Source: Bacilli bacterium (lineage in GTDB: Bacteria; Bacillota_I; Bacilli_A; ML615J-28; CAG-698). From it: 64,000 bases of DNA. Below, piece after piece: positions 24,033-50,835 of this stretch. Numbering within the stretch: position 1 is the first letter of the stretch; every line of letters begins with the position of its first letter. The notes beneath the pieces were generated by a model. That model did no database searches. It was not told the DNA's origin and saw only the letters and a list, made by a program, of their open reading frames with translations. The stretch is taken from contig JBMNLZ010000001.1 of NCBI GenBank assembly GCA_050953065.1, forward strand, positions 272,826 to 336,825, given 5' to 3'. Made by a program: the position numbers and the translations under genes.

Positions 24033-24034
24033 AT

Positions 24035-35107: not shown

Positions 35108-35136
35108 TTGATTTATAAGGAAATATTTGTTATAAT
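35108..35136 (+). promoter_or_regulatory. Promoter for tRNA-Gly
   Basis: TTGATT, 17 bp, TATAAT (35131..35136), 11 bp upstream of the tRNA 5' end. Confidence 0.6.
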
Positions 35137-35147
35137 GTTAATACATT

Positions 35148-35222
35148 GCAGGTATAGTATAAAGGCTATTATGCCGCCTTGCCATGGCGAAGATGCGAGT
35201 TCGATTCTCGTTACCTGCTCCA
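35148..35222 (+). tRNA. tRNA-Gly (anticodon GCC) with genomically encoded CCA
   Basis: Acceptor stem GCAGGTA/TACCTGC; anticodon loop TTGCCAT; T-arm GAGTTCGATTCTC; 3' TCCA. The ORF-track ORF 35108..35299 overlapping it is spurious. Confidence 0.85.
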
Positions 35223-35257
35223 AAGCATATAAGTTTATCATTGATAACTTTTTTATT

Positions 35258-35298
35258 AAAAAATCTCTAAATGAAAATTTAGAGATTTTTATTTTTTA
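35258..35298. terminator. Terminator after tRNA-Gly, also serving the convergent LRR gene
   Basis: aaatctctaaa-tgaaaatt-tttagagattt hairpin followed by T run. Confidence 0.7.
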
Positions 35299-35317
35299 AA
35301 ATAATATTATATTTCTA

Positions 35318-36397
35318 TTATCCGGTATAGCCCCAAACAACTGGTCTATTATCAGGATTCCAATTGCTATCCCAGCCACTTGGTTGACTAGTAGCTTTTG
35401 CATTTATACTTAAATTAGCACAATCCCAAAAAACATAATTTCCCATAGTTTCTACCTGTTTTGGAATAATGATTGTTTCTAAACTACTACAATTAGTAAA
35501 TGCGTACATTGCTATACTAGTAACAGTGTCTGGAATCACTACACTTGTTAGACTATTGCACCCCCTAAATAAAGCAAATTCTATATTTGTTATACCTTCT
35601 GGAAGCGTTATACTTTCTATACTACTACATCCATAAAAAGCGCTAGTTCCAATACTAGTAACTCCTGATGGAATTGTAATGCTAGTTAAATTAGCACAAT
35701 TATAAAATAAAGAATTTCCTAAACTTTTAATATTATCTGAAAGTGTAACACTTTCTAATCTTTTACAAAGTTTAAAAACATTAGTTCCAAGTGTAGTAAC
35801 ACTATTAGGAAGTGTAACACTAGTTAAATTAACACAACCATCAAAGGCATAGTCTTCTATACTAGTAACAGTGTTTGGAATAGTAATACTAGATAAACTT
35901 TCACATTGATTAAACGCAAAACTTCTTATACTTGTAACCCCTTCTGGAATTTCAATACTAGTAAGACTAGCACATCCAATAAATAATCCAATTTCAATAG
36001 TATCAATAGTATTAGGAAGTGTAACTGTTGTTAAACCCATGCAAGAATTAAAAACATATCTGCTTATTTTCCCTACTCCATTTTCAATATTAACAGTTTT
36101 TAATTTAGCACAAAAATCAAAAGCATACTCACCTATACTCACAACACTTGAAGGAATTTTAATGCTTGTTAATTTAGATTCAGCAAACGCTCTTGCTGCT
36201 ATACCTGTGACACTAATGTTCTCATAGCTTGAAGGGATTTTAATTCTTCCACTTTCACCAGTATAACCAACCACCTCATAAGTTTCATCTTCTTTTAATT
36301 TAAAAACAACACCTTCATAACCTTCTTCTTCTTCAAAACACGATGTCAACAATAGCAGTGCAAAAACTATTATTAAAATATTAAATATTTTTTTCAT
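35318..36397 (-). CDS. BspA-type leucine-rich-repeat surface lipoprotein (small paralog)
   Basis: Signal peptide plus lipobox LLLTSC; repeated ~23-aa LRR units (..LTSITIP.SVTSIG..AF..C..L..); C-terminus NRPVVWGYTG shared with the two giant paralogs. Confidence 0.8.
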   Translation of the reverse strand: MKKIFNILIIVFALLLLTSCFEEEEGYEGVVFKLKEDETYEVVGYTGESGRIKIPSSYENISVTGIAARAFAESKLTSIKIPSSVVSIGEYAFDFCAKLKTVNIENGVGKISRYVFNSCMGLTTVTLPNTIDTIEIGLFIGCASLTSIEIPEGVTSIRSFAFNQCESLSSITIPNTVTSIEDYAFDGCVNLTSVTLPNSVTTLGTNVFKLCKRLESVTLSDNIKSLGNSLFYNCANLTSITIPSGVTSIGTSAFYGCSSIESITLPEGITNIEFALFRGCNSLTSVVIPDTVTSIAMYAFTNCSSLETIIIPKQVETMGNYVFWDCANLSINAKATSQPSGWDSNWNPDNRPVVWGYTG

Positions 36398-36490
36398 TTT
36401 CCTACACTCTCTTTCTCTTATCTAATCTTTCATAAAAAGATCTCTTTATAATATTATATAACAAAAAACAAAATCTAACAAGATAATTAG

Positions 36491-36535
36491 AAAAAGTCTC
36501 TAAATATTTATTATTTCAGAGACTTTTCTTTTTTT
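36491..36535 (-). terminator. Terminator of the 1882-aa LRR gene
   Basis: aaaagtctc...gagactttt stem followed by a T run in the minus-strand sense. Confidence 0.5.
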
Positions 36536-36574
36536 ATTTTACTTTATTAAGTTATAAAACTAAAACATTAATTA

Positions 36575-39500
36575 TTACCCAGTATATCCCCAAACTACCG
36601 GTCTATTATCAGGATTCCAATTAGCATTCCAAGTAGTTGGTCGATCTGTTGCTTCAGCATAAATTGTTAAATTTGTACAACCAGCAAAAACTCCACTAAA
36701 CATGTTGGTAACATTTGCTGGAATTATAATGCTTGCTAAACCTGTACATCCAGAAAATGCATAATCACCTATAGTTGTAATATTTGTTGAAATTGTAATG
36801 CTTGTTAGAATTGTACAATTAGCAAAAGCACTTGAAGCTATAGTTGTAACAGGATATGTTTCTATTGTAGAAGGTATTGTTACAGCACCGGAAACACCTG
36901 TATAACCAGTTATTACTACACTATAAGTAGAATCTATTAGAGAAACTCCATACTCTATTCCACTAGCAGTAACATCATTACTTACATACCCCCAAACAAT
37001 TGGTCTATTGTCTACATTCCAAAGACTCTCCCAGCCTGCTGGTTTACTTTCTGCTTTAGCATATATCGTTAAACTACTACATCCGTAAAAAGCACGATAA
37101 CCTATACTTGTAACACTTGTTGGAATTGTTATGCTTGCAAGTTTTGAACAGTTATAAAAGACATGCTGACCAATACTTGTAACACTTGTAGGGATTGTGA
37201 TACTTGTAAGATTTGCACATTCACTAAATGACGAACTGTTTATTGTTGTAACAGTTGAAGGAATTATAACGCTTGTTAGGCTATTACAAAATCTAAAGCA
37301 ATCAAAGCCTATACTTAGTAATCCTTCTGTCATTATTACGCTTGATAAACTTGAACAAGATTCAAAAGCAGAACGACCAATACTTGTGATGCTTGAAGGA
37401 ATTGTGATACTTATTAAATTAGTACAATTAGCAAAAGCCCAATTACCTATCGTTTTAACAGAATAGTTTTCTATTATACTTGGTATTTCCACTTCAGTAG
37501 AAACGCCTTCATAAGTAGTTATTATTACACTATATGTAGAATTAACTTTAGAAATTCCATATTCTAATCCACCAGCAGTAACTCCATGACTAATATATCC
37601 CCAGACAACTGCATTGTGTCCCGAATCCCAAGATTCATGCCAATTTGTTGGTTTTTCTTCTGCTACAACATAAATAGGCATACCAGGACAATCCCAAAAA
37701 ACAGAATGATCCATATGTGTTACACTATTTGGAATTATTACCCTTTCTAGTCTTGTACATCCTTTGAATGCACCATAGTCGATTGTAGTAACAGTATTTG
37801 GAATTGTAACAGTTGTTATGAAATAACAACTTTCAAATGCAGTTTCACCTATGCTTAATAATCCTTCTGGAAGTGGCATGCTTGTTAAACCACTACAACC
37901 TGCAAATGCTCTTCTACCTATACTTGTAATACTTGGCATTGTAATACTTGTTAAACCACAGTTAAAGAAAGTGTAGTCTTCTATACTTGTAACTCCAGTT
38001 GGAATTGTGACACCTGTTAAACTACAACAATTATAAAAAGCATATGAACCTATACTAGTAACTGTATCAGGAATTGTTACTCCTGTTATATTACAATTTC
38101 TAAAAGCAGAATTAGTTATGCTTTTAACATTAAATCCAGCAATTGTTTCTGGTATTAAAACTGTAGTCGCCCCACCTACATAACCATATATTGCTACACT
38201 GTAGTTAGAATTTATTAATATAATTCCATATTTTAAACCATTATTAGTAACTCCACTAGCAACATAACCAAAAACAACTGGTCTATTATCTACATTCCAA
38301 TTTATATGCCATCCTAATGTTTTAGCATTTGATCTAGCAAAAATTGTTAAACTACTACAACCTTTAAATGCATTTGCTCCTATTGTAACAACACTTGAAG
38401 GAATTGTAATGCTTGTTAAAGTGTCACAATCTTCAAAAGCAGATGCAGCTATACTAGTAATTGCTTTACCTAAATATTTTTCTGCAATATATACATCTAA
38501 AGATTCCCCAGCATAACCAGTAACCTCATATGTATCATCTTCTTTTAATGTGAAAGCTAGTCCTTCTGTTGAAGCATTTTCTTCCCATTTAGCAAATAGT
38601 GTATAACTCGCTAAAACTCCCATTGTATAACTTGCTTCATCTAAATATTCTACACTTCCACCTTGAGTTGTACTCCAACCAATAAAGCTATAACCTGGTT
38701 TAACAAATGTATTTTCAGGAAGGTAGATAGAATCATCTGTTTTTACCAACACATTACTCATTTGACCTAAGCCGCTATTAGCATTAAATGATAAAGTATT
38801 TTGATTAGCTTCCCATTTAGCAAAAAGCGTATAATTTTCTAAAACTCCCATCGTATATTTTGCTTCATCAAGATATTCTACATTACCATTTTCAGTTGTA
38901 GCCCAACCTATAAAAGTATAACCAGCTTTAGTAAATGTATTTTTTGGAAGATAGATATAATTATCTGTTTTAATTTGCACACTATTCATTTCACCTGTTC
39001 CAGTATTAGCATTAAACGATAATGTGTTTTGTTTAGCTTCCCATTTAGCAAAAAGCGTATAATTATCTAAAACACTAATTGTATAATTAGCTTCATCAAG
39101 ATATTCTACATTTCCAGTTTCAGTTGTAGCCCAACCTATAAATGTATAACCAGCTTTAGTAAATGTATTTTTTGGAAGTTTTATAGTTTGTTTTACATCT
39201 ATTGTAATACCTCCCATTTCTCCTGTTCCACCATTTGAATCAAAAGAAATTACATATCCTTGCCTTCTACTAATTACTGCTTTATATATAGCACTTTCAC
39301 TACCCTTTGTAACTTTGATATATGCAGTATTATCCCCGACTGCAAGTTCTATTGATTTTGAAACAATTTTATTTGTTGCTTCTATATCACTGTATAATTC
39401 CCAAGTTGCTAAAGGATGAACTATAATATAATTAATAAATGAGAATGTTGTAGTAAAATGTGAGACTTCAAAAGATAAATTTGTTCCATCAATTTCAAAT

Positions 39501-42223
39501 TCTTTTGCAAAAAGTATATAGTCCCAAATAACTGGCCTTGTACTAGAATTCCAATCATTATTCCAAGTATCAGGTTTGCTTGCTACTTCACAATAAATTG
39601 TTAGCCTATCACAATAAGCAAAGGCAGCAGCATTTATATTAGTAACACTTGCAGGAATAATTATCCTTTTTAAACTATCACATTGCCAAAAAGCCTGACT
39701 TCCTATACTTGTAAGAGTTGAAGGAAGTGTTATGCTTTCTAAGCTACGGCACCATGTAAAAGTAGAACTTTCAATTCTTTCTATTCCTTCTGGAATTACA
39801 ATACTTTTTAAGTAACAACTCATAAATGCAGCACTACCTATACTTGTTAATCCTTCTGGAAGTGTTATATTTGATAAAAGAGTACAATCTCCAAAAGCAT
39901 AGTCTCCTATACTTGTAACTGTATCTGGAATATTAATACTCCTTAATTTGTCGCATCCATAAAAAGCAAATTTACCAATACTAGTAATTCCTTCTGGAAG
40001 TGTTACATTTGTTAGGCTAGAACGCCCATTAAACGCAGATGAAGCTAAAATTTTAACTGGGTAGCCTTCAATTTTACTTGGTATCACCAGTTCAGCTTCT
40101 GTTCCTTGATAACCAGTTATTACCACGCTATATGTAGAATCTATTAGAGAAAGAGCGTACTCTATTCCATTAGGAGTTACATCATTACTAACATATCCAA
40201 AAACAACTGGACTACAATTTACCCCCCATTGCTTATATATATCCCATCCATCAGCCCAATCAGCAGGTTTACTTTCAGCCTTAGCATAAATTTTTAAACT
40301 TGTATAATTCTTAAAAGCTCCAACTCCAATATTTACAACTGTTTCTGGAATTATAATGCTTTTTAAATTAGTGCATCCCACAAAAGTCTCAGCACCAATA
40401 CTAGTAACATTTGCTGGTATTGTTATATTTGTTAGAGTTGTACAATCTTTAAAAGCTGAACTACCTAAATTTGTAACAGGATAATCTTCAATTGTTTCTG
40501 GAATAACTACTTCGCTTAAATCACCAGTATACCCTGTTATTACTACACTGTATTTAGAATCTATTAAAGAAACCGCATATTCTATTCCATCAAGAGTTAC
40601 ACTATGACTTACATATCCCATAACAACTGGTATACTATCAAGAATTGTTGCACTACGCCATGATTCAGGTTTTTCTTCTGCTTCAGCATAAATTACAGCA
40701 TTTGTACATCCATGAAAAGCTCCATAATACAATCTTGGAGTTCCTAAAATAAAAATACTTTTTAAATTGCTACAACCAGTAAAAACATTCATACTAATGC
40801 TTGTTACACTCTTAGGAAATGTTAAACTTGTTAAACCTATACAGCCTTTAAAAGCATCTGATCCTATAGTTGTAAGACTTTCTGGAAACGTAATATTTGT
40901 TAATTGGCTACAACTTTCAAAAACCCAGCCACCTATAGTAACAAGATTTGGAGAAAATGTTATAGATGTTAAGTTTTCACAATTCTTAAAAGCACCATTA
41001 CCTATACCTATAATACTAGATGAAAGTGTGATACTAGTTAAGATACTACAATTTTGAAAAGCCGTTATGCCAATACTTCTTATTGGTTTTCCTTCATGTT
41101 TTCTACCAATATAAACATCATTTAATGTTCCTTCATAACCAATAACTTCATATGTATCATCTTCTTTTAAAGCAAATATTAGTCCTTCTGTTGAAGGTTT
41201 AGTCCACTGTGCATATAAAGTGTAGCTTCCTTCTGTTCCCATAGTATAGTTTGCTTCATCTAAGTATTCATCAATACCTTCAGCACTTGTACTCCAACAA
41301 TCAAACGTGAACCCTTCTTTTGTAAAAGTATTGGCTGGAAGAGTTATAGTTTCATCAGTTTTCACTAAAATACTATACGCATCACCTAATCCACCATTTG
41401 GATCAAAAAATAATGTATTTTCATTTGCTTGCCAGATTGCTTTAATAACTATATTACCTCTAACATCAATAGGGAAAACAATTTCTACACCTCTAGAATC
41501 TTTCCACCCTTTAAACTCATATCCTTCTTTAATTGGTTCTTCTGCTGGAAGATTAAATTGTTCTCCTTCTTCTACATATTGAGATTCCATTACCTCTCCA
41601 CCATCTGTATCAAAAGAAATCTCATACATTGCTAATCTTGTAATCAAAACCCAATACCTTCGACTTTGATCATCCTTTGAAACTTCAATATGGAATTGAT
41701 TCATTCCAACTGCAAGATCAACTGTTTTTGAAGCAATCGCTTCATTTCCAAAATCAGAATACAAAGCCCAAGTTATAGAAGGCTTAACAGTAATCTTATC
41801 AACTAATGAAAATGTTTCAGTTGAATTTGGAACTGTAATAGACAAATCCATCTCATTGATTTCAAATCCTGCAGCACTTACAATTTTTAAATCTTCATAA
41901 GTTACATTTGATTTCCATTTTGCATAAACCGTAATATCACTATTAATAGGTTCTCCTAAAAGTGAATTTTCACTAAAACTTTTACGGAAAGTATTGTTAT
42001 CTTTATACCACCCATCAAACTGATATCCTTCTTTTTCTGGATCATCAGGCAAATTAATACTTTCATTTCCATTTGTTTTTATAGATGAAACCTCACTTCC
42101 ACCATTACTATCAAAATGAATTGTATACTTTGCATCTTGACCACATGCTACTAATAAAAAACTTATTAGTATAAATAATACAAACAAAATTCTTTTAATT
42201 TTAATCATATTTATCCCTCTCAA
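36575..42223 (-). CDS. Giant surface lipoprotein: Listeria-Bacteroides (Flg_new) repeats plus multiple BspA-type LRR blocks
   Basis: 1882 aa. Signal peptide/lipobox LLVACGQD. N-terminal GYQFDGWYKD and GYTFIGWATTE..VEYLDEANYT Flg_new-type repeats. Long LRR arrays. C-terminus NRPVVWGYTG. Confidence 0.8.
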   Translation of the reverse strand: MRGINMIKIKRILFVLFILISFLLVACGQDAKYTIHFDSNGGSEVSSIKTNGNESINLPDDPEKEGYQFDGWYKDNNTFRKSFSENSLLGEPINSDITVYAKWKSNVTYEDLKIVSAAGFEINEMDLSITVPNSTETFSLVDKITVKPSITWALYSDFGNEAIASKTVDLAVGMNQFHIEVSKDDQSRRYWVLITRLAMYEISFDTDGGEVMESQYVEEGEQFNLPAEEPIKEGYEFKGWKDSRGVEIVFPIDVRGNIVIKAIWQANENTLFFDPNGGLGDAYSILVKTDETITLPANTFTKEGFTFDCWSTSAEGIDEYLDEANYTMGTEGSYTLYAQWTKPSTEGLIFALKEDDTYEVIGYEGTLNDVYIGRKHEGKPIRSIGITAFQNCSILTSITLSSSIIGIGNGAFKNCENLTSITFSPNLVTIGGWVFESCSQLTNITFPESLTTIGSDAFKGCIGLTSLTFPKSVTSISMNVFTGCSNLKSIFILGTPRLYYGAFHGCTNAVIYAEAEEKPESWRSATILDSIPVVMGYVSHSVTLDGIEYAVSLIDSKYSVVITGYTGDLSEVVIPETIEDYPVTNLGSSAFKDCTTLTNITIPANVTSIGAETFVGCTNLKSIIIPETVVNIGVGAFKNYTSLKIYAKAESKPADWADGWDIYKQWGVNCSPVVFGYVSNDVTPNGIEYALSLIDSTYSVVITGYQGTEAELVIPSKIEGYPVKILASSAFNGRSSLTNVTLPEGITSIGKFAFYGCDKLRSINIPDTVTSIGDYAFGDCTLLSNITLPEGLTSIGSAAFMSCYLKSIVIPEGIERIESSTFTWCRSLESITLPSTLTSIGSQAFWQCDSLKRIIIPASVTNINAAAFAYCDRLTIYCEVASKPDTWNNDWNSSTRPVIWDYILFAKEFEIDGTNLSFEVSHFTTTFSFINYIIVHPLATWELYSDIEATNKIVSKSIELAVGDNTAYIKVTKGSESAIYKAVISRRQGYVISFDSNGGTGEMGGITIDVKQTIKLPKNTFTKAGYTFIGWATTETGNVEYLDEANYTISVLDNYTLFAKWEAKQNTLSFNANTGTGEMNSVQIKTDNYIYLPKNTFTKAGYTFIGWATTENGNVEYLDEAKYTMGVLENYTLFAKWEANQNTLSFNANSGLGQMSNVLVKTDDSIYLPENTFVKPGYSFIGWSTTQGGSVEYLDEASYTMGVLASYTLFAKWEENASTEGLAFTLKEDDTYEVTGYAGESLDVYIAEKYLGKAITSIAASAFEDCDTLTSITIPSSVVTIGANAFKGCSSLTIFARSNAKTLGWHINWNVDNRPVVFGYVASGVTNNGLKYGIILINSNYSVAIYGYVGGATTVLIPETIAGFNVKSITNSAFRNCNITGVTIPDTVTSIGSYAFYNCCSLTGVTIPTGVTSIEDYTFFNCGLTSITMPSITSIGRRAFAGCSGLTSMPLPEGLLSIGETAFESCYFITTVTIPNTVTTIDYGAFKGCTRLERVIIPNSVTHMDHSVFWDCPGMPIYVVAEEKPTNWHESWDSGHNAVVWGYISHGVTAGGLEYGISKVNSTYSVIITTYEGVSTEVEIPSIIENYSVKTIGNWAFANCTNLISITIPSSITSIGRSAFESCSSLSSVIMTEGLLSIGFDCFRFCNSLTSVIIPSTVTTINSSSFSECANLTSITIPTSVTSIGQHVFYNCSKLASITIPTSVTSIGYRAFYGCSSLTIYAKAESKPAGWESLWNVDNRPIVWGYVSNDVTASGIEYGVSLIDSTYSVVITGYTGVSGAVTIPSTIETYPVTTIASSAFANCTILTSITISTNITTIGDYAFSGCTGLASIIIPANVTNMFSGVFAGCTNLTIYAEATDRPTTWNANWNPDNRPVVWGYTG

Positions 42224-42261
42224 TCTATATTATTATTATACAACAAAAATAGTTAATACAC

Positions 42262-42312
42262 AACAAGAAAAAGGAAGTAGATTGTCTAACTTCCTTTAAC
42301 CTTTTTTTCTAA
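42262..42312 (-). terminator. Terminator of the 2825-aa LRR gene
   Basis: aaaggaagtagattgtctaacttccttt hairpin plus T-rich tract. Confidence 0.6.
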
Positions 42313-42357
42313 AAAATACTATTTTATTGTGTTAATATTTTTAGTAAATATATTATA

Positions 42358-45300
42358 TTATCCTGTATAACCCCAAACAACTGGTCTGTTATCTGGATTC
42401 CAACCATCAACCCAACCTTCTGGTTTGCTTTCTGCTATAGCATTAATTGTTAGGCTACTACAACCTTTAAATGCATAATAGCCAATATTTGTAACGCTTG
42501 AAGGAATTGTGATACTTGTTAAAGCAGAACAGTTTCTAAAAGCATATGCAGCTATAGTTGTAACTGTATAGCCCCCAATTGTTCCAGGGATTTCTACATC
42601 CGTTAAGCTTCCTTCAAACCCTATTATTATTACACTATAGTTAGAATCTATACAAGTAGTTACATATTTAATTCCATCAGGAGTAACACCATTATTTACA
42701 CATCCCCAAACAACTGGTCTAGAGCTTGGATTCCAACCATCAGCCCAACCTGCTGGTTTACTTTCAGCCTCAGCATAAATTGTTAGACTATTACATTTAT
42801 AAAAAGCACGATTATTTATACTTGAAACACTTGATGGAATATAGATGTTTGTTAGGCTTGTACATCCTGAAAAGGCTTCATAACCTATATATGTAATATT
42901 TGTTGGAATTATGACATTTCCTAAATTAGTACAGTTAAGAAACATAAATTCATTTAAATCTGTAATACCTGTTGGAAGTATGATACTTTCTAAACTAGAA
43001 CAATTAGCAAAAGCAAATGATCCAATACTTGTAATTCCTGTTGAAAGTGTAATGCTTGTTAAATCATAACAATGAGTAAAAGCATTTACGCCAACACTAG
43101 TAACACTATTTGGAAGTGTGATACTTGTTAAACTTTGACAATGAGCAAAAGCACATACACCAATACTTGTAATTCCCGTTGGAAGTGTGATACTTGTTAA
43201 TTCCAAGCAGTTATAAAAAGCTCCATATTTTAACTCTGTTGTATTTGTTATTATTACAGTTTTAAGTGATGTTGGAATATAATATGTACTAGATGAACTA
43301 GATGAATAATATTGTCTTGTACTACTTCCACCTGTGTATGAAGTAGTTCCAAAGATATATCCAAATAAAGCATTGCCTTCTATTGCTTCTCTACTTGCTC
43401 CAACAAATGGTAATGAAATTGATGTTAAACTACTACAGCCAGAAAAAGCATGTGATTCTATACTTGTAACACTATTTGGAACTGTGATACTTGTTAAAGC
43501 AGAACAGTTTCTAAAAGCATATGCAGCTATAGTTGTAACTGTATAACCCCCAATTGTTCCAGGGATTTCTACATCCGTTAAGCTTCCTTCAAACCCTATT
43601 ATTATTACACTATAGTTAGAATCTATACAAGTAGTTACATATTTAATTCCATCAGGAGTAACACCATTATTTACACATCCCCAAACAACTGGTCTGTTAT
43701 TTGGATTCCAATATTTTTCATATTCATCTTCAAACCATCCTTCAGGCTTGCTTTCAGCCTCAGCATATATTGTTAAAATACTACATCCCTGAAAAACATA
43801 AAAATATATACTTGTAACACTTGATGGAATATAGATGCTTGTTAGGTTTGTACATCCTGAAAAAGCTTCATAACCTATATGTGTAATATTTGTTGGAATT
43901 ATGACATTTCCTAAACTATGACAGCCAGCAAAAGTATAGTCATTTAAATTTGTAATACCTGTTGGAAGTATGATACTTGTTAAACAATAACAATCATAAA
44001 AAGCACTTGCGCCAATACTTGTAATACCTGTTGGAAGTGTGATACTTGTTAAATTAGAACAATAAGCAAAAGCATTTGTACCAATACTTGTAACACTATT
44101 TGGAAGTGTGATACTTGTAAGTTGTGTACATCTTGAAAAAGCATCATTGCCTATACTTGTAATACCTGTTTGAAGTGTGATGCTTGTTAAGCCACTACAG
44201 CAATGAAAAACATAATTGCCTATACTTGTAACGCTTGATGGAATTGAAATAGTGGAAATTTGTGTACATCCTGAAAAAGCATGATCACCTATAGATAAAA
44301 GACTTGTTGGAAGAGTAATACTTGTTAGTTGTGTTTTTCCTGAAAAGGCTGAAAAAGCTATAGTTGTAACAGGATGACCTTCAATTGTTTCTGGTATTAC
44401 AACTTCATTTTCAATTCCTTGATAACCTGTTATTATCACACTATAATTAGAATCTATTAACGTAATTGCATATTCTAATCCACTAGCAGTAACACTATTA
44501 CTTACATAGCCCCAAACAACTGGTCTACTACTTGAGTTCCAATTATCATGCCAACCTTCTGGTTTGCTTTCTGCTGCTGCATATATTGTTAAACTACTGC
44601 AACCTGAAAAAGCATGCTCACCTATATATGTAACGCCTATCGGAATTGAAATACTTGTTAAACTATTACAGTTAGAAAAAGTACATTCACCTATATTTGT
44701 CATACCTGATGGAAGTGTGATGCTTGTTAAATTCGTAAGGTCAGCAAAAACAGCATAAGTAGTTGTTGTAACAGGATAACTTTCTATTGTTTCTGGTATT
44801 ATTATTTCATTTGCAGTTCCTGTATACCTTGCAATTGTTATACCATAAGTAGAACCTATCAGTGAAACTCCATATTCATAATCTCCAAAAACACCATGAC
44901 TTACATGGCCCCAAACAACTGGTCTGTTATTTGGATTCCAATCACCATATACCCAGTCAATTGCCCAACCTTCTGGTTTACTTTCTGCTTCAGCATAAAT
45001 TATTAAATTATTACAATTTTGAAAAACGCGATTTCCTATATTTGTAACACTTATTGGAATTACTATGCTTGGAAGTTGTGTACAACCAGTAAAAGAATAT
45101 TTTTCTAAATGTGTAACAGTATTTGGAATTGTAACACTTGTTAAATTAGTACAACCCATAAAAACATTTTGTCCTATGCTTGTAACACCCGATGGAATTG
45201 TAACACTTGTTAAAGTTGTGTTTTGACAAAAAGTATTCAATTCTATTTTTTTAATAGGATATGTTTCTATTGTTTCTGGTATTATTACTTCGCTTGCAAC

Positions 45301-48300
45301 TCCTTGATAGCCTGTTATTATTACACTGTAATTAGAAGCTATACAAGAAATCGCATACTTTAATCCAGCTTCCGTAACACCACTACTTACATAACCCCAA
45401 ACAATAGGTCTAGCACCACGATTCCACCAAAAAGCGTAACCACCTTGAGCGCTTTCAGCTTCAATAAATAGTACCAAATTATTACAATGATAGAAAGCTT
45501 CACTTCCTATATTTGTAACGATTATAGGAATTGTGATGCTTGTTAAATTATTACATCTAAAGAAAGCGTAAGCAGGTATGCTTGTTGTATCTGTTAAAAT
45601 TACACTTCTTAATGATGTTGGCACATAATATGTAATCTCTGGATAATAAACTGAATAACATTGACTTGTTGGAGTTCCTCCTGTATATGGAGTAGTTCCA
45701 AATATATATCCAAATAAAGTATCTCCGTTTACTGCTGATTTACTTGCTCCAATAAATGGAATTGTTATTTCTATCAAACCACTACATCCAGAAAAAGCAT
45801 GTGATTCTATACTTGTAACACTATTTGGAACTGTGATACTTGTTAAAGATGTAGAATTATAAAAGGCACCTGAAGCTATAGTTCTAACAGGATAGGTTTC
45901 TATTATTCCTGGGATTTCTAATTCATTTGCAACTCCCTGATAGCCTGTTATTACTACACTATAACTAGATCCTATCAAAGAAACTCCATATTCTATTCCA
46001 CCATCAGTTACACCATTACTTACATAGCCCCAAACAACTGGCCTATTACTTGGATTCCAACCATCAACCCAACCTACTGGTTTATTTTCTACTTCTGCAT
46101 AAATTGTTAAAATACTACATCCTTGAAAAGCAGCATTATTAATAGTTGTAACTTCTTCTAGAATTGTGATACTTGTTAAAGATGTAGAATTATAAAAGGC
46201 ACCTGAAGCTATAGTTGTAACTGGATAGTTTTCTATTGTTTCTGGTATTACTACTTCATTTGCAACTCCCTGATAGCCTGTTATTACTACACTATAATTA
46301 GATCCTATCAAAGAAACCCCGTATTTTATTCCACCATCAGTTACACCATTACTTACATAGCCCCAAACAACTGGCCTATTACTTGGATTCCAACCATCAA
46401 CCCATCCTGCTGGTTTATTTTCTACTTCTGCATAAATTGTTAAAATACTACAGCCTTGAAAAGCAGCATTATTGATAGTTGTAACTTCTTCTAGAATTGT
46501 GATATATATTAAACCACTACAATTACGGAAAGCAGCCTCACCAATAGTTGTAAGACTTTCTGGTATTATAATATTTGTTAGATTACTACAATTATAAAAA
46601 GCACCATAGCCCAATGTTGTTGCATTTGTTATAGTTACAGTCCTTAATAATGATGGAATATAATATTTAATAGATGAACTAGCTGCATAGTATTGCGTTG
46701 TACTAGTTCCACCCGCATATCCAAAAGTACCAAAAACATATCCAAATAAAGCATTAGCTCCTGTTGCAGATTTACTTGCTCCAGCAAATGGTAATGAAAT
46801 TTCTGTTAAACCACTACAGCCAGAAAAAGCATGTGAACCAATATTTGTAACACTTGAAGGAACTGTTATGCTTGTTAGGCTACTACAATTTCTAAATGCT
46901 GAATCTCCAATAGTTATAGCACCTGTTGGTATTGTAAGATTTTCTAAAAGCACACAACCTCCAAATGCACAATTACCTATACTTTCAAGATTTGTTGGAA
47001 TTATAATACTTTCCAATTTAATACAACCAAAGAATGTATAACCTTTTATACTTGTAACACCATTTGGAAGAGTAATACTTGTTAAAGCTGAACATTCTCT
47101 AAATGCTCCTTCTCCAAGACTAGTAAGGTTTGAAGGAATCGTTATGCCTGTTAAGCTACTACAAAGATAGAAAGCAGATGCATCTATGCTTATCACACCC
47201 TCTGGAATTGTGATGTTTGTTAAATTAGTACAACCATAACAAACAAACGAACCTATACTTGTAACAGTATTTGGAATTGTTATGCTTGTTAATCTTGCGC
47301 AACCCCTAAAAGTAGCATCGCTAAGCGCTGTAATAGAACCTGAAATTGTTATACTTGTTAAATTATTACAATTATAAAAAGCACCATATCTTAAATTTTC
47401 AACATTTGTTATTACAACAGTTTTTAACAATATCGGAATATAATAATTAGCATATGAACTAGTTGTATAATATTGAGTTGTTTTAACTCCGCCAGTATAT
47501 GAAGTAGATCCAAAGATATAACCAAATAAAGAACTTGATCCTGTTGCAGAACTACTTTCTCCTACAAATGGTAATGAAATTTCTATCAAACCACTGCATC
47601 CAGAAAAAGCATGTGAACCTATATTTGTAACACTCGTTGGAACTGTTATACTTGTTAGGCTTGTACAACCCATAAAAGCAAAACTACTTATACTAGTGAT
47701 ATTTGTTGGAATTATTATACTTTCTAAACCTGTACAATTTTTAAAGACAGAATCGCCTAAATTCGTAATACCTGTTGGAAGAGTTATGCTTATTATACCT
47801 GTGCAACCCATAAATACAGAATTACCCATCTCTGTGATACTTGAAGGAATTATAATACTTGTTAAATTACTACATCCATAAAAAGCACCATAAGAAACAG
47901 TTGTTATATCTGTTATCGTTACTGTTGTTAGTGAAGTTGGAATGTAATATACACTATAAAAATCAGGTCCATAATATTGAGCTGTACTAGTTCCACCAGT
48001 ATAAGGACTCGTTCCAAAAATATAACCAAATAAGCCAGCCTCTGCTACTCCACCTCTACATTGCCCTAAAAATGGTAATGAGATTGTTGTTAAATTACTA
48101 CAACCTGAAAAAGCACCTTCTTCTATGATTGTAATACTTGAAGGAATTATGATACTTGTTCCTTTATAATTATTGAAAGATAAAGCAGTTAAGGTTGTTA
48201 AATTACTTCCATCAGCAAAAACTATTTCAGCTGTTACATCAGCAAAAGCCTCTTCACCAATGCTTGTAATACTTTTTGAAATGGAGATACTTGTTAGACT

Positions 48301-50835
48301 ACTACAACCTGAAAAAGCAGAATCTCCAATACTTGTAATAGCTTTACCCCTATATAGATTTTCAATTACTACCGTTAAAGATTCCCCTTCATAACCAGTA
48401 ACCTCATATGTATCATCTTCTTTTAATGTAAAGACTAATCCTGATGTTGAAGGTTTTTCTACCCATTTAGCGAAAAGTTGATAATCAGCTAAAGCACCCA
48501 TTGTATAGCTTCCCTCATCTAAAAATTCAACATCCCCTGTCTCAGTTGTACTCCAACCTGCAAATAGATAATATGTTCTAGTGAAGGTATTCTTTGGTAA
48601 AGTTATAGTTTCATTAGTTCTTACTAAAATACTTCCCATATTTCCTTCTCCACCATTTGAATTAAATGATAGAGTATTTTGATTAGCTTCCCATCTAGCT
48701 TCATAAGTTAATGCAATTGCTGGCATTATGAATTGATATGTTGCTAAATTAGATATAAGAGTATTATTATTATCATACCAGCCTATAAATGTATAACCAG
48801 TATTAGTTGTTGCTGTTATTGTTACTTGATCTTTATATGTTATTTTTCCACTACCTGTTACACTTCCAGCAGCCTCATCACTTAATGTTAAGTTTAATTG
48901 ATAACTTTCAATTTCCCATTTTGCTTGATAACTTACAGCTCTTGCTGGCATTGTAAATGTATAGATAGTTAAATCAGATACCAAAGTATCATTTTCATCA
49001 TACCAACCTGCAAAACTATATCCTATGTTTGTTGTAACTGTTATTGTTACTGAACTATTATATTCTTTTAATCCAGCACCATCTACACTTCCAGCATCCT
49101 CATCACTTAATGTTAGACTTAATTGATAACTTTCATAGCCCCATCTAGCTTCATAAGTTAATGCAATTGCTGGCATTATGAATTGATATGTTGCTAAATT
49201 AGATATAAGAGTATTATTATTATCATACCAGCCTATAAATGTATAACCAGTATTAGTTGTTGCTGTTATTGTTACTTGATCTTTATATGTTATTTTTCCA
49301 CTACCTGTTACACTTCCAGCAGCCTCATCACTTAATGTTAAGTTTAATTGATAACTTTCAATTTCCCATTTTGCTTGATAACTTACAGCTCTTGCTGGCA
49401 TTGTAAATGTATAGATAGTTAAATCAGATACCAAAGTATCATTTTCATCATACCAACCTGCAAAACTATATCCTATGTTTGTTGTAACTGTTATTGTTAC
49501 TGAACTATTATATTCTTTTAATCCAGCACCATCTACACTTCCAGCATCCTCATCACTTAATGTTAGACTTAATTGATAACTTTCATAGCCCCATCTAGCT
49601 TCATAAGTTAATGCAATTGCTGGCATTATGAATTGATATGTTGCTAAATTAGATATAAGAGTATTATTATTATCATACCAGCCTATAAATGTATAACCAG
49701 TATTAGTTGTTGCTGTTATTGTTACTTGATCTTTATATGTTATTTTTCCACTACCTGTTACACTTCCAGCAGCCTCATCACTTAATGTTAAGTTTAATTG
49801 ATAACTTTCAATTTCCCATTTTGCTTGATAACTTACAGCTCTTGCTGGCATTGTAAATGTATAGATAGTTAAATCAGATACCAAAGTATCATTTTCATCA
49901 TACCAACCTGCAAAACTATATCCTATGTTTGTTGTAACTGTTATTGTTACTGAACTATTATATTCTTTTAATCCAGCACCATCTACACTTCCAGCAGCCT
50001 CATCACTTAATGTTAAGCTTAATTGATAACTTTCAATTTCCCACTTTGCATATAAAGTATAACTTTCTTGTGCTCCCATTGTATAATTTGCTTTATCAAA
50101 ATATTCTACACTTCCATCTTCAGTTGTAGACCAACCAATAAATTTATATCCAGTTCTTATAAATTCATTTCCTGGAAGAGTGATAGTTTCATTAGTAGCA
50201 ACTAAAACATTATCCATTTCACCTTCTCCAGTATTTGCATTAAATACTAAAGTATTTTGGTTAGCTTCCCACTTAGCGTAAAGTGTATAATTATCTAAAA
50301 CATCAATTGTATAGTTTGCTTCATCTAAATATTCTACATCACCATCTGATGTTATACTCCAACCTGTAAATGTATAACCTTCTTTTGTAAATGTATTTTT
50401 TGGAAGTGTAATAGATGTATTTGCTTCTACAGCAACACTATTCATCTCTCCACTTCCACCATTTGCACTAAACTCAATTTGGTAAAGCTGTAATCTTTTA
50501 ATCGTAACTGTATATATTTTACTTGCTTTGCCTTTTCCAACTTTAATATATACCGTGTTATCTCCTTCTAAAAGCTCTACTGTTTTTGAAACAATTTCAT
50601 TTGTAGCAGACAAATCACTATATAAATCCCAAATCGCTAAAGGACTAACAGTGATTTGATTAATAAATGAATATGTTGTAGTAGAATTTGGCACTTCAAC
50701 ATACATATTCGTTCCATCCATTTCAAATCCTATAGCATCAATTATGCCTATGAATTTTTCTTCCTTATCACACGCAACTAATAAGAAACTTATTAGCGCC
50801 AAAAATATAAAAAAGATTTTTCTAACTCTTCTCAT
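42358..50835 (-). CDS. Giant surface lipoprotein (2825 aa): Ig-like/Flg_new repeats, 3 perfect 150-aa repeats, extensive BspA-type LRR arrays
   Basis: Signal peptide/lipobox LLVACDKE; same module types and the same NRPVVWGYTG C-terminus as the neighbouring paralogs; uninterrupted 8.5-kb ORF. Confidence 0.8.
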   Translation of the reverse strand: MRRVRKIFFIFLALISFLLVACDKEEKFIGIIDAIGFEMDGTNMYVEVPNSTTTYSFINQITVSPLAIWDLYSDLSATNEIVSKTVELLEGDNTVYIKVGKGKASKIYTVTIKRLQLYQIEFSANGGSGEMNSVAVEANTSITLPKNTFTKEGYTFTGWSITSDGDVEYLDEANYTIDVLDNYTLYAKWEANQNTLVFNANTGEGEMDNVLVATNETITLPGNEFIRTGYKFIGWSTTEDGSVEYFDKANYTMGAQESYTLYAKWEIESYQLSLTLSDEAAGSVDGAGLKEYNSSVTITVTTNIGYSFAGWYDENDTLVSDLTIYTFTMPARAVSYQAKWEIESYQLNLTLSDEAAGSVTGSGKITYKDQVTITATTNTGYTFIGWYDNNNTLISNLATYQFIMPAIALTYEARWGYESYQLSLTLSDEDAGSVDGAGLKEYNSSVTITVTTNIGYSFAGWYDENDTLVSDLTIYTFTMPARAVSYQAKWEIESYQLNLTLSDEAAGSVTGSGKITYKDQVTITATTNTGYTFIGWYDNNNTLISNLATYQFIMPAIALTYEARWGYESYQLSLTLSDEDAGSVDGAGLKEYNSSVTITVTTNIGYSFAGWYDENDTLVSDLTIYTFTMPARAVSYQAKWEIESYQLNLTLSDEAAGSVTGSGKITYKDQVTITATTNTGYTFIGWYDNNNTLISNLATYQFIMPAIALTYEARWEANQNTLSFNSNGGEGNMGSILVRTNETITLPKNTFTRTYYLFAGWSTTETGDVEFLDEGSYTMGALADYQLFAKWVEKPSTSGLVFTLKEDDTYEVTGYEGESLTVVIENLYRGKAITSIGDSAFSGCSSLTSISISKSITSIGEEAFADVTAEIVFADGSNLTTLTALSFNNYKGTSIIIPSSITIIEEGAFSGCSNLTTISLPFLGQCRGGVAEAGLFGYIFGTSPYTGGTSTAQYYGPDFYSVYYIPTSLTTVTITDITTVSYGAFYGCSNLTSIIIPSSITEMGNSVFMGCTGIISITLPTGITNLGDSVFKNCTGLESIIIPTNITSISSFAFMGCTSLTSITVPTSVTNIGSHAFSGCSGLIEISLPFVGESSSATGSSSLFGYIFGSTSYTGGVKTTQYYTTSSYANYYIPILLKTVVITNVENLRYGAFYNCNNLTSITISGSITALSDATFRGCARLTSITIPNTVTSIGSFVCYGCTNLTNITIPEGVISIDASAFYLCSSLTGITIPSNLTSLGEGAFRECSALTSITLPNGVTSIKGYTFFGCIKLESIIIPTNLESIGNCAFGGCVLLENLTIPTGAITIGDSAFRNCSSLTSITVPSSVTNIGSHAFSGCSGLTEISLPFAGASKSATGANALFGYVFGTFGYAGGTSTTQYYAASSSIKYYIPSLLRTVTITNATTLGYGAFYNCSNLTNIIIPESLTTIGEAAFRNCSGLIYITILEEVTTINNAAFQGCSILTIYAEVENKPAGWVDGWNPSNRPVVWGYVSNGVTDGGIKYGVSLIGSNYSVVITGYQGVANEVVIPETIENYPVTTIASGAFYNSTSLTSITILEEVTTINNAAFQGCSILTIYAEVENKPVGWVDGWNPSNRPVVWGYVSNGVTDGGIEYGVSLIGSSYSVVITGYQGVANELEIPGIIETYPVRTIASGAFYNSTSLTSITVPNSVTSIESHAFSGCSGLIEITIPFIGASKSAVNGDTLFGYIFGTTPYTGGTPTSQCYSVYYPEITYYVPTSLRSVILTDTTSIPAYAFFRCNNLTSITIPIIVTNIGSEAFYHCNNLVLFIEAESAQGGYAFWWNRGARPIVWGYVSSGVTEAGLKYAISCIASNYSVIITGYQGVASEVIIPETIETYPIKKIELNTFCQNTTLTSVTIPSGVTSIGQNVFMGCTNLTSVTIPNTVTHLEKYSFTGCTQLPSIVIPISVTNIGNRVFQNCNNLIIYAEAESKPEGWAIDWVYGDWNPNNRPVVWGHVSHGVFGDYEYGVSLIGSTYGITIARYTGTANEIIIPETIESYPVTTTTYAVFADLTNLTSITLPSGMTNIGECTFSNCNSLTSISIPIGVTYIGEHAFSGCSSLTIYAAAESKPEGWHDNWNSSSRPVVWGYVSNSVTASGLEYAITLIDSNYSVIITGYQGIENEVVIPETIEGHPVTTIAFSAFSGKTQLTSITLPTSLLSIGDHAFSGCTQISTISIPSSVTSIGNYVFHCCSGLTSITLQTGITSIGNDAFSRCTQLTSITLPNSVTSIGTNAFAYCSNLTSITLPTGITSIGASAFYDCYCLTSIILPTGITNLNDYTFAGCHSLGNVIIPTNITHIGYEAFSGCTNLTSIYIPSSVTSIYFYVFQGCSILTIYAEAESKPEGWFEDEYEKYWNPNNRPVVWGCVNNGVTPDGIKYVTTCIDSNYSVIIIGFEGSLTDVEIPGTIGGYTVTTIAAYAFRNCSALTSITVPNSVTSIESHAFSGCSSLTSISLPFVGASREAIEGNALFGYIFGTTSYTGGSSTRQYYSSSSSSTYYIPTSLKTVIITNTTELKYGAFYNCLELTSITLPTGITSIGVCAFAHCQSLTSITLPNSVTSVGVNAFTHCYDLTSITLSTGITSIGSFAFANCSSLESIILPTGITDLNEFMFLNCTNLGNVIIPTNITYIGYEAFSGCTSLTNIYIPSSVSSINNRAFYKCNSLTIYAEAESKPAGWADGWNPSSRPVVWGCVNNGVTPDGIKYVTTCIDSNYSVIIIGFEGSLTDVEIPGTIGGYTVTTIAAYAFRNCSALTSITIPSSVTNIGYYAFKGCSSLTINAIAESKPEGWVDGWNPDNRPVVWGYTG
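45836..46510 (-). repeat. Near-perfect in-frame 336-bp tandem duplication inside the 2825-aa gene
   Basis: tgttaaagatgtagaattataaaaggcacctgaagctatagtt... at 45841 and again at 46177; the 112-aa unit ..LEEVTTINNAAFQGCSILTIYAEVENKP.GWVDGWNPSNRPVVWGYVSNGVTDGGI.YGVSLIGS.. occurs twice in the protein. Confidence 0.85.
48691..50040 (-). repeat. Perfect in-frame 450-bp tandem repeat x3 inside the 2825-aa gene
   Basis: ccatctagcttcataagttaatgcaattgctggc... recurs at 48691, 49141 and 49591 with essentially identical sequence (150-aa unit SYQLSLTLSDE..TYEARW). Confidence 0.9.

What the first reader, a model, noticed from the sequence alone, without database searches (positions are those of the whole stretch)
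35318..50835. Tandem array of three BspA-type LRR lipoproteins sharing a conserved NRPVVWGYTG C-terminus and Flg_new modules
Three same-strand genes of 359, 1882 and 2825 aa occupy ~15.5 kb. Each has a lipoprotein signal peptide and arrays of ~23-aa LRR units. The 1882- and 2825-aa genes also carry Listeria-Bacteroides-type repeats (GYTFIGW...EYLDEANYT). All three end with the same ~12-aa motif (W(N/D)..NRPVVWGYTG), and the DNA at the three stop codons is also similar. This looks like a paralogous surface-protein family diversifying by module shuffling, which is typical of adhesin or antigenic-variation loci. The conserved C-terminal motif may be a sorting, anchoring or processing signal.
Basis: partly seen in the sequence, partly recalled or inferred. 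Interest (0 to 1): 0.55.

Follow-up and report, generated by a model that had tools for sequence, protein, structure and literature searches.

The report
Modular BspA-type LRR lipoprotein gene array
Three neighbouring genes encode very large, membrane-anchored leucine-rich-repeat surface proteins of a well-known type, and the "special" shared tail is the normal end-cap of every repeat module, so the locus is real but ordinary.

Summary
Three minus-strand genes (359, 1877/1882 and 2825 aa) each have a lipobox signal peptide and 23-aa BspA-type LRRs (Pfam LRR_5). The two large ones also carry Flg_new/Flg_new_2 repeats. All three end in NPDNRPVVWGYTG.

The motif is not specific to the C-terminus. 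It occurs 16 times in the three proteins, 13 of them internal, always at the end of an LRR module. Internally it is followed by a conserved linker and the N-cap of the next module. Many unrelated LRR_5 proteins in public data also end in ...KPxGWxxxWNxxxRPVVWGYxx. AlphaFold2 places it as an ordered part of the LRR fold (pLDDT 96-98). It is therefore a structural C-cap. No sorting-signal feature is present: no TM tail and no matching CTERM model.

A related genome (about 92% nt identity) shows that the locus does vary. It has one fewer Flg_new repeat, possibly one fewer LRR module, a diverged last module and two extra paralogous genes. This supports diversification by modules. No dedicated phase- or antigenic-variation switch was found.

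Verdict: new members of a known kind, in an uncultured low-GC "Bacilli"/Acholeplasmataceae-like MAG that NCBI already annotates as "leucine-rich repeat protein". Low to moderate interest.

The parts
35318..36397 (-). Gene A, 359 aa. Lipoprotein signal (MKKIFNILIIVFALLLLTS|C), one LRR_5 module with N-cap (VVFKLKEDETYEVVGYTG) and C-cap, ends NPDNRPVVWGYTG*.
   Evidence: LRR_5 E 3.8e-106. AF2 pLDDT 95.1. Foldseek top hits 4gt6, 4fs7, 4h09, 6mlx.
36575..42208 (-). Gene B, 1877 aa from ATG 42208 (the ORF list starts at TTG 42223, giving 1882 aa). Order of parts: lipobox LLVA|C; an N-terminal block of three Flg_new repeats interrupted by a beta-sandwich segment that has no Pfam match; 3 LRR modules; a second sandwich plus 3 Flg_new (228-nt units); 4 more LRR modules.
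   Evidence: Exact match to NCBI MGI6710098.1 'leucine-rich repeat protein'.
42358..50835 (-). Gene C, 2825 aa. Order of parts: lipobox LLVA|C; a cadherin-like sandwich (weak Pfam match); 2 Flg_new; 6 Flg_new_2; 1 Flg_new (nt ~48466-50766); then 8 LRR modules (nt 42361-48468). Several LRRs carry ~45-aa insertions (SLPFxGxS...YYIP).
   Evidence: Exact match to NCBI MGI6710099.1.
35327..35380 (-). Terminal C-cap of gene A (SGWDSNWNPDNRPVVWGY, then TG and stop).
   Evidence: pLDDT 96-98, strand 353-355.
36584..36637 (-). Terminal C-cap of gene B. The six internal caps of B lie at 40613-40666, 40193-40246, 39518-39571, 38264-38317, 37595-37648 and 36986-37039.
42367..42420 (-). Terminal C-cap of gene C. 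The seven internal caps of C lie at 46357-46410, 46024-46077, 45391-45444, 44905-44958, 44506-44559, 43675-43728 and 42700-42753.
48690..50035 (.). Tandem repeat, 450 nt x 3.0 at 99% identity. Each unit encodes a pair of Flg_new_2 domains. This is a recent in-frame expansion.
45828..46504 (.). Tandem repeat, 333 nt x 2.0 at 95%. Each unit encodes C-cap, linker, N-cap and two LRRs, i.e. one 111-aa mini-module. An independent JGI contig breaks here, at window position 46397.
38581..39178 (.). Tandem repeat, 228 nt x 2.6 at 84%: the Flg_new units in the middle of B. The window has 3 copies; the related locus L038 has 2.
43486..43695 (-). Direct repeat copy 1, ~200 nt at 99-100% identity to 42511-42720. 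It encodes ...RPVVWGCVNNGVTPDGIKYVTTCIDSNYSVIIIGFEGSLTDVEIPGTIGGYTVTTIAAYAFRNCSALTSIT (cap, linker, N-cap junction). The two copies bracket a 975-nt LRR module that is absent from L038.
42511..42720 (-). Direct repeat copy 2 of the cap-linker-N-cap junction.
42266..42295 (-). Hairpin plus T-run downstream of gene C (GGAAGT...ACTTCC TTTTTC). Similar hairpins follow B (~36489-36527) and A (~35257-35288). Promoter-like TTGTTx/TATAAT pairs precede each gene (A: 36481-36453). I read the three genes as separate transcription units.
   Evidence: Read directly from the sequence. Promoter match for A. The consensus terminator scan did not list these AT-rich hairpins, so this is my reading, not a tool call.

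Best explanation
This is a tandem array of three independently transcribed genes for BspA/TpLRR-type (Pfam LRR_5) cell-surface lipoproteins. The host is an uncultured low-GC Bacilli/Acholeplasmataceae-like bacterium.

How each protein is most likely built and placed:
- It is exported by Sec, and the lipobox cysteine is acylated, so the N-terminus is tethered to the membrane (inferred from the sequence pattern).
- In the two large proteins, a stalk of beta-sandwich and Flg_new/Flg_new_2 (internalin B-repeat-like) domains follows.
- The stalk carries a string of 7 or 8 self-contained LRR modules. These are the likely ligand-binding (adhesin or co-aggregation) surfaces, by analogy with BspA, LrrA, PcpA and internalins. 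This function is inferred, not shown.

How each LRR module is built:
- N-cap: a beta-hairpin, ...YSVxITGYxG....IPxxI.
- Body: 2 to about 25 LRRs of 23 aa.
- C-cap: C..LTIYAEAESKPxGW...WN..NRPVVWGY.

The 'conserved C-terminus' is simply this C-cap, seen where the last module ends the protein. Inside a protein, the same cap runs straight into the linker and N-cap of the next module.

Because the cap-linker-N-cap junctions are the most conserved stretches, up to 200 nt identical within gene C, they offer in-frame homology for unequal recombination. That adds, removes or swaps whole modules. Together with tandem duplication of the Flg_new units, this is how the family diversifies between strains.
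For: Anatomy:
- Genes, lipoboxes and domains.
- 16 caps, 13 of them internal, each at a module end; a shared junction consensus.

The cap is widespread:
- The consensus of 32 LRR_5 proteins from unrelated metagenomes ends LTIYCEAxSxPxGWxxxWNxxxxPVVWGYxxx.
- About 25 of 120 homologues (regex plus by-eye count) and 10 of 150 representatives stop 2-8 residues after the cap.
- Multi-cap giants exist elsewhere: P0261 has 5 caps and ends WGYTGE; P0311 has 6 caps and ends WGYKG.
- 320,407 representative clusters match a 110-aa mini-module.

The cap is a structural element:
- AF2 model of gene A: pLDDT 95.1; the last 30 residues score 96-98 and include strands 330-333 and 353-355.
- AF2 model of a junction: pLDDT ~90 continuously through the internal cap (strand 97-99) and into the linker hairpins (101-129); pTM 0.73.
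- Fold matches are LRR_5 crystal structures: 4gt6, 4fs7, 4h09, TpLRR 6mlx, PcpA 4cp6.

The cap is under protein-level constraint:
- 4-7 synonymous and 0 non-synonymous differences in the last 14 codons of the three genes. Upstream codons and downstream DNA diverge.

The locus varies between genomes:
- L038 is ~92% nt identical, with 2 rather than 3 Flg_new units, a last B module at 73%, two extra lipobox paralogues ending VVWGYTG(E), and one 975-nt module missing.
- In the window that module is bracketed by ~200-nt 99-100% repeats of the junction.

Context:
- Flanks are housekeeping genes: CCA-adding enzyme, tRNA-Gly, YfmH/YfmF, DeoD/DeoC, IleRS.
- Expanded, variable BspA-like families are already described in Mollicutes (PMC4206474, PMC5476646) and in Trichomonas (PMC2843621).
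Against: - No binding partner, expression or surface localisation is shown. The adhesin role is by analogy only.
- Lipoprotein status rests on the lipobox pattern. No dedicated predictor or experiment was available.
- All seven gene termini seen in the two strains read VVWGYTG(E), while internal caps read VVWGY[VI][SAN]. This small positional difference (T-G then stop) is not explained by 'cap' alone.
- In the second AF2 model, the terminal cap of the mini-module has low confidence (pLDDT 28-48). The alignment there is shallow, with 12 rows that are mostly misaligned at those columns.
- The missing 975-nt module in L038 could be an assembly collapse across the 200-nt perfect repeat. L038 is a 3.3x SPAdes contig with several frameshifts.
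- The copy number of the 99%-identical 450-nt repeat in the window itself is not independently verified. The independent identical contigs stop at window position 46397.
Confidence: 0.8

Rival explanations
1. The invariant terminal ...VVWGYTG-COOH is a true C-terminal recognition tag for sorting, anchoring, processing or partner docking. It would be used by this lineage in addition to its structural role.
For: - All 3 termini in the window, and all 4 readable termini in L038, end VVWGYTG(E), including the divergent paralogues D and E whose upstream cap residues differ.
- Internal caps never have T-G after WGY.
- The terminal codons differ only synonymously.
Against: - The same element occurs 13 times internally.
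- Unrelated proteins end WGYKG, WGYNE, WGYKES, WGVKK and so on, so the residues after WGY are not conserved across lineages.
- There is no hydrophobic helix or basic tail as in LPXTG, PEP-CTERM or GlyGly-CTERM signals.
- No T9SS CTD is present, and no NCBIfam or Pfam sorting model matches.
- No sortase-like gene lies among the window genes I scanned. ORFs 22149-28333 were not scanned.
- The residues are predicted ordered, not as a free tail.
Confidence: 0.07
2. The array is a dedicated antigenic- or phase-variation locus, with high-frequency programmed switching as in the Mycoplasma vsp/vlp/vsa families or the (CA)n-controlled BspA-like genes of Ca. M. girerdii.
For: - It is a family of surface lipoproteins in a Mollicutes-like organism.
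- Near-perfect tandem repeats are present: 450 nt x3 at 99% and 333 nt x2 at 95%.
- Gene and module content differ in a ~92%-identical relative.
- BspA-like genes are phase-variable in Ca. M. girerdii (PMC5476646).
- A G6 tract sits in the 17-nt spacer of the promoter-like site of gene C.
Against: - G6 occurs 3 times in the window against 2.7 expected.
- There are no dinucleotide repeats or homopolymers of 8 or more in or just upstream of the genes' 5' ends.
- No inverted repeats bracket the promoters.
- No recombinase or invertase gene is nearby.
- Two other samples carry a 100% identical sequence over 11.7 kb.
- All three genes are intact, each with its own promoter-like site and terminator hairpin.
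Confidence: 0.12
3. Part of the apparent architecture is a short-read or MAG assembly artefact of highly repetitive DNA. This would affect the sizes of genes B and C, the repeat copy numbers, and the differences from L038.
For: - Independent contigs break inside the repeats: the JGI contig ends at window 46397, and a Logan contig ends in the Flg_new repeats.
- Sister-species contigs end just downstream of the amidase gene, where an array would be expected.
- L038 has 3.3x coverage and several frameshifts.
- The 975-nt difference is flanked by 200-nt perfect repeats.
Against: - Window positions 34733-46397 are reproduced base for base in an independent JGI assembly.
- The ORFs are uninterrupted for 5.6 and 8.5 kb in a 27% GC genome.
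- The repeats at 84-85% identity, and the extra genes D and E, cannot arise by collapse.
Confidence: 0.1

Closest known systems
BspA of Tannerella forsythia, LrrA of Treponema denticola and TpLRR of T. pallidum (Pfam LRR_5 / PS50505 TpLRR proteins)
   Same: - The same 23-aa BspA-type LRR (LRR_5 E down to 0).
- The same fold: Foldseek matches to TpLRR 6mlx and to the structural-genomics LRR_5 proteins 4gt6, 4fs7 and 4h09.
- These are surface-exposed proteins implicated in adhesion and co-aggregation (PMC4206474 summarises the evidence).
   Different: - BspA carries Big_2 domains and a T9SS C-terminal domain and sits on a diderm surface. Here the anchor is an N-terminal lipobox, the accessory domains are Flg_new/Flg_new_2, and up to 8 separately capped LRR modules are concatenated.
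- None of the solved LRR_5 chains aligns with the cap motif by sequence.
Expanded BspA-like families of 'Ca. Mycoplasma girerdii' (26-28 genes) and Trichomonas vaginalis (TvBspA, 911 genes)
   Same: - A multi-copy, length-variable LRR_5 surface-protein family in a Mollicutes-type genome.
- Repeat number differs between paralogues and between isolates.
- Assemblies break in these genes (PMC4206474, PMC5476646, PMC2843621).
   Different: - The girerdii proteins mostly have a C-terminal TM domain, and several are switched by (CA)n tracts. Here the anchor is a lipobox, there is no TM domain and no simple-sequence switch.
- Only 3 genes are seen in this window, or 4 in L038.
Listeria internalins (LRR plus B-repeats; Flg_new PF09479 / InlB B-repeat PF18998)
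   Same: The same design logic: an LRR binding domain combined with Flg_new-type beta-repeat spacers on a surface protein. Flg_new scores E 5e-69 and 5e-56; Flg_new_2 scores 4e-85.
   Different: - Internalins use the 22-aa classical LRR with an Ig-like inter-repeat region, and are anchored by LPXTG or GW modules at the C-terminus.
- Here the LRRs are LRR_5, the order is stalk first and LRRs last, and the anchor is N-terminal.
Streptococcal LRR_5 surface proteins HupY/LrrG and PcpA
   Same: - The best NCBIfam similarity is to HupY/LrrG, far below its cut-off.
- PcpA 4cp6 is a fold match.
- These are Gram-positive LRR_5 surface adhesins or antigens.
   Different: Scores are far below the equivalog cut-off (103-341 bits against 1250). 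I recall (not tested here) that the anchoring differs too: LPXTG for LrrG and choline-binding repeats for PcpA. These are not orthologues.

Membership tests
BspA-type LRR proteins (Pfam PF13306 LRR_5) | Significant match to the LRR_5 profile above the gathering score; 23-aa repeat period. | tested here: met
   350, 669 and 1025 bits against a 27.7-bit cut-off. 69-nt period.
BspA-type LRR proteins (Pfam PF13306 LRR_5) | LRR_5 solenoid fold as in the solved members. | tested here: met
   AF2 pLDDT 95.1. Foldseek prob 1.0 to 4gt6, 4fs7, 4h09, 6mlx and 4cp6.
Listeria-Bacteroides repeat proteins (PF09479 Flg_new / TIGR02543; PF18998 Flg_new_2) | Profile match above cut-off. | tested here: met
   Genes B and C only: Flg_new 229 and 187 bits; Flg_new_2 62 and 280 bits; TIGR02543 113 and 117 bits. 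Gene A has none.
Bacterial lipoproteins (Lgt/Lsp substrates; PROSITE PS51257-type lipobox) | A K/R in the first residues, a hydrophobic h-region, and [LVI][ASTVI][GAS]C with the Cys at about position 15-35. | tested here: met
   The pattern is satisfied in all three: LLTS-C20, LLVA-C22, LLVA-C22. The rule is recalled from established knowledge. No LipoP/SignalP run and no biochemical proof.
C-terminal sorting signals (LPXTG/sortase, PEP-CTERM, GlyGly-CTERM, T9SS CTD and similar) | A signature motif followed by a hydrophobic helix and a basic tail, or a ~80-aa T9SS CTD; and a cognate sorting enzyme. | tested here: not met
   The proteins stop 2 residues after WGY, with no hydrophobic tail. No PF18962 and no NCBIfam CTERM model matches. 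No sortase among the window genes I scanned. The whole genome was not available.
Mollicute variable surface lipoprotein systems (vsp/vlp/vsa type, or SSR-switched BspA-like genes) | A switching device: a promoter or 5' homopolymer or dinucleotide tract, or invertible DNA with a site-specific recombinase. | tested here: not met
   No SSRs beyond G6 at the chance rate. No flanking inverted repeats. No recombinase nearby. Population-level read data are not testable with these tools.
HupY/LrrG adhesin (NF047961) and Gli349 (NF045861) | Whole-protein score above the curated equivalog cut-off. | tested here: not met
   103-341 bits against 1250; 56-164 bits against 1750.

The most novel reading that the evidence does not exclude
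The cap-linker-N-cap junction may be more than a structural joint. It could be a selected, reusable 'splice site' for in-frame module exchange within and between the paralogous genes, making a combinatorial surface-variation system built on LRR cassettes. The invariant terminal VVWGYTG-COOH could additionally be recognised by an unknown partner. The cap itself is a widespread LRR_5 end-capping motif with no Pfam model and no solved structure found by sequence.
Probability: 0.1. Interest if true: 0.5.

Novelty: new member of a known kind. Interest (0 to 1): 0.25.

Why it matters
Mostly as a correction. A motif that looks like a private C-terminal signal when only protein ends are compared is in fact the generic end-cap of a capped LRR_5 module.

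There is a modest annotation gain. The N-cap (YSVxITGYxG..IP) and C-cap (IYAEAESKPxGW...WN..NRPVVWGY) are not covered by Pfam LRR_5, and no solved structure matches them by sequence. Yet they delimit modules in very many giant surface proteins. A profile for them would let multi-module LRR_5 proteins be parsed automatically.

For the organism, the array marks a strain-variable set of surface adhesin candidates in an uncultured Acholeplasmataceae-like lineage.

Tried and rejected
- **Sorting-signal reading.** Rejected, because of the internal copies, the wide distribution, the ordered structure prediction and the absence of any CTERM model.
- **Gene conversion as the cause of the shared 3' ends.** Rejected. 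All differences in the last 14 codons are synonymous, and the flanking DNA diverges.
- **Phase-variation devices.** I searched for a G6 excess, SSRs, inverted repeats and recombinases and found none.
- **Close relatives in GTDB species representatives and JGI metagenomes, using the flanking CCA-adding enzyme.** Only hits of 48% identity or less, with no usable synteny.
- **Sister species (IleRS 84%).** The contigs conserve the IleRS...YfmH...Big_2-amidase block but end ~190 bp past the amidase gene, so the array could not be compared there.
- **Exact-protein look-ups.** They returned only contigs 100% identical to the window, or fragments truncated at a contig end.
- **Model coordinates.** They are not exposed, so burial of the cap tryptophans could not be measured.
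- **Terminator scan.** The consensus scan did not pick up the AT-rich hairpins after each gene. I read them by eye.
Full report
**1. What is there**

Three ORFs lie head to tail on the minus strand:
- 35318-36397 (359 aa)
- 36575-42223 (1882 aa from TTG)
- 42358-50835 (2825 aa)

For the second gene, the ATG at 42208 gives the 1877-aa product that NCBI holds as MGI6710098.1. The third gene is MGI6710099.1. Both are annotated 'MAG: leucine-rich repeat protein [Bacilli bacterium]' on a 343,980-bp contig.

Each product starts with a basic n-region, a hydrophobic stretch and a lipobox: LLTS|C20, LLVA|C22 and LLVA|C22.

Pfam results:
- LRR_5, the BspA type, at E 4e-106, 1e-204 and 0.
- Flg_new and Flg_new_2 (Listeria-Bacteroides / InlB B-repeat) only in the two large proteins.

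The DNA repeat period of the LRRs is 69 nt, or 23 aa. All three proteins end in WNPDNRPVVWGYTG. The descriptive part of the finding is therefore correct.

**2. The motif is the end of every LRR module, not of every protein**

A pattern scan finds the same element, consensus C..LTIYAEAESKPxGW...WN..NRPVVWGY, 16 times:
- once in gene A,
- 7 times in gene B,
- 8 times in gene C.

Thirteen copies are internal. Twelve of these are followed within a few residues by a conserved linker and N-cap, VSNGVTxxGIEYGVSLIDSxYSVVITGYxG....IPxTI, which opens the next LRR module. The thirteenth is followed by the sandwich/Flg_new block in the middle of B.

The large proteins are thus strings of self-contained, capped LRR modules of 2 to about 25 repeats, placed distal to a stalk of beta-sandwich and Flg_new domains.

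The same cap ends unrelated proteins:
- The consensus of 32 aligned LRR_5 homologues from diverse metagenomes ends LTIYCEAxSxPxGWxxxWNxxxxPVVWGYxxx.
- About 25 of the 120 best homologues stop 2-5 residues after it, with tails such as WGYVS, WGYKAG, WGYTGEA, WGYKKN and WGVKK. This count combines a regex with reading the listed tails by eye.
- Among the 150 best representatives of a search that matched 320,407 clusters, 27 carry the cap, 10 of them at the very end. Some are multi-cap proteins: P0261 has 5 caps and ends WGYTGE; P0311 has 6 caps and ends WGYKG.

**3. Structure**

AlphaFold2 on gene A, with a 32-row alignment, gives pLDDT 95.1 and pTM 0.87. The last 30 residues score 96-98. They contribute two further strands (330-333 and 353-355) after the last regular LRR.

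Foldseek matches are the LRR_5 crystal structures 4gt6, 4fs7 and 4h09, TpLRR 6mlx and PcpA 4cp6.

A second model covers an internal junction, gene C residues 2612-2825. It keeps pLDDT near 90 through the internal cap and straight on into three linker/N-cap strands, with pTM 0.73. Its terminal 20 residues are poorly predicted. I attribute that to the shallow alignment, which is misaligned at those columns.

Neither Pfam nor any PDB sequence matches the cap or junction peptide. The motif is a widespread capping element that has not been modelled.

**4. Constraint, not conversion**

In the last 14 codons the three genes differ at 4, 5 and 7 positions. All of these differences are synonymous. The preceding codons are only ~60% identical, and nothing beyond TAATA is shared after the stop. 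The identity of the tails therefore reflects purifying selection on a structural element rather than recent copying of DNA.

**5. No sorting signal and no switching device**

There is no hydrophobic or basic tail, no T9SS CTD, and no NCBIfam C-terminal sorting model.

The neighbouring genes I scanned are housekeeping genes:
- an ABC transporter, an ECF component, an acyltransferase, the CCA-adding enzyme and tRNA-Gly on one side;
- an SSB, a Big_2-amidase lipoprotein, YfmH/YfmF, DeoD, DeoC and IleRS on the other.

None is a sortase or recombinase. ORFs 22149-28333 were not scanned.

Further checks:
- G6 tracts occur at the chance rate.
- No other simple-sequence tracts lie in or before the genes.
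- No inverted repeats bracket the promoter-like sites.
- By my reading, each gene has its own TTGTTx/TATAAT promoter-like pair and a hairpin plus T-run after the stop.

**6. Variation between genomes**

Two other assemblies (JGI 3300060804 and Logan SRR31061296) are 100% identical to the window. They end inside the repeats.

ENA contig ERZ2647956 NODE_4547 (L038) is ~92% identical over the 3' third of C and most of B. It differs in four ways:
- The mid-B Flg_new array has 2 units instead of 3. These are 228-nt units at 84% identity, so the difference cannot be a collapse.
- The last module of B is only 73% identical.
- Two additional lipobox genes follow B, of 1018 and 860 aa. They are 36-42% identical to the window proteins and end NNQVVWGYTGE and GGTVVWGYTG. 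After them comes rpsB rather than gene A, tRNA-Gly and the CCA enzyme.
- One 975-nt LRR module of C is absent.

In the window that module is bracketed by ~200-nt direct repeats, 99-100% identical, that encode exactly the cap-linker-N-cap junction. This is what unequal in-frame recombination at module joints would produce. However, L038 is a 3.3x short-read contig, so an assembly collapse across the same repeat cannot be excluded.

Inside the window, a 450-nt unit (two Flg_new_2 domains) is present 3 times at 99%. A 333-nt unit (one mini-module) is present twice at 95%.

**7. Organism**

GC content is ~27% and the standard genetic code applies. The best named IleRS relatives are 'Bacilli bacterium' at 84% and 'Acholeplasmataceae bacterium' at 64-68%. 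GTDB species representatives hold no close relative of the flanking CCA enzyme.

I do not assert that the organism lacks a wall. The window also encodes an Amidase_2 lipoprotein, a Glu-racemase-like protein and a PF00144 protein.

**8. Comparison with known systems and verdict**

The proteins meet the definitions of LRR_5, Flg_new and (by pattern) lipoproteins. They fail the tests for C-terminal sorting signals, for SSR- or invertase-switched variable lipoprotein systems, and for the HupY/LrrG and Gli349 equivalogs.

Expanded, length-variable BspA-like families that break assemblies are already described in Ca. Mycoplasma girerdii and in Trichomonas (PMC4206474, PMC5476646, PMC2843621).

This is a new member of a known kind. 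The 'paralogous modular surface family' reading is supported. The 'C-terminal signal' reading is not.

One residual oddity remains. All seven termini in the two strains read VVWGYTG(E), whereas internal caps read VVWGY[VI][SAN]. I give ~7% to a terminal-specific role.

Noticed in passing
window 51634-54930 (-), and L020 11263-14568 / L021 11291-14587: Immediately upstream of the array is a 1098-aa lipoprotein (lipobox FVSG|C). It has ~8 Big_2 domains and a C-terminal N-acetylmuramoyl-L-alanine amidase (Amidase_2). It is conserved, with the same flanks, in a sister species whose IleRS is 84% identical. A surface-tethered peptidoglycan amidase in an Acholeplasmataceae-like organism is curious. 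Possible roles are wall turnover if a wall exists, or an attack on or scavenging from neighbouring cells.
   Followed up: partly
window 51040-51357 (-): A small SSB-family gene (PF00436, E 1e-19) lies between the amidase gene and gene C. It has a good AAGGAGG ribosome-binding site but no ATG, GTG or TTG start; the frame opens at ATT ATT AAC. The ORF list therefore missed it, and a spurious 100-aa plus-strand ORF (51101-51403) is listed instead.
   Followed up: partly
L020 / L021 ends; window 46397; P0392: Short-read contigs from several samples end at or inside this array: just downstream of the amidase gene (L020/L021), in the 333-nt duplication, and in the Flg_new repeats. The family is probably under-represented or truncated in MAGs.
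   Followed up: partly
L038 9020-14755 and 14965-15069: The related strain carries two further lipobox LRR_5/Flg_new genes (1018 and 860 aa), and then rpsB. rpsB is not in the 64-kb window. The downstream flank of the array therefore differs between the two genomes, by rearrangement or by a different insertion point.
   Followed up: partly
window genes C (aa ~880-1440, 1650-1790, 2460-2560): Some LRRs of gene C carry a recurring ~45-aa insertion (SLPFxGxS....LFGYIFGT..YTGG..T.QYY.....YYIP.SL). It forms a distinct sub-repeat inside the solenoid. The DNA repeat families D8 and D9 correspond to it. Its function is unknown.
   Followed up: no
window 6378-7862 (-), 9368-10240 (-): A PF00144 (beta-lactamase/PBP-like) protein and an Asp/Glu-racemase-family protein are encoded in the same window. 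These are possible hints that this 'Acholeplasmataceae-like' lineage handles D-amino acids or peptidoglycan.
   Followed up: no
window 10266-11813 (+): A 515-aa protein whose only recognisable features are C-terminal zinc-ribbon / double-zinc-ribbon motifs. The rest has no Pfam match.
   Followed up: no
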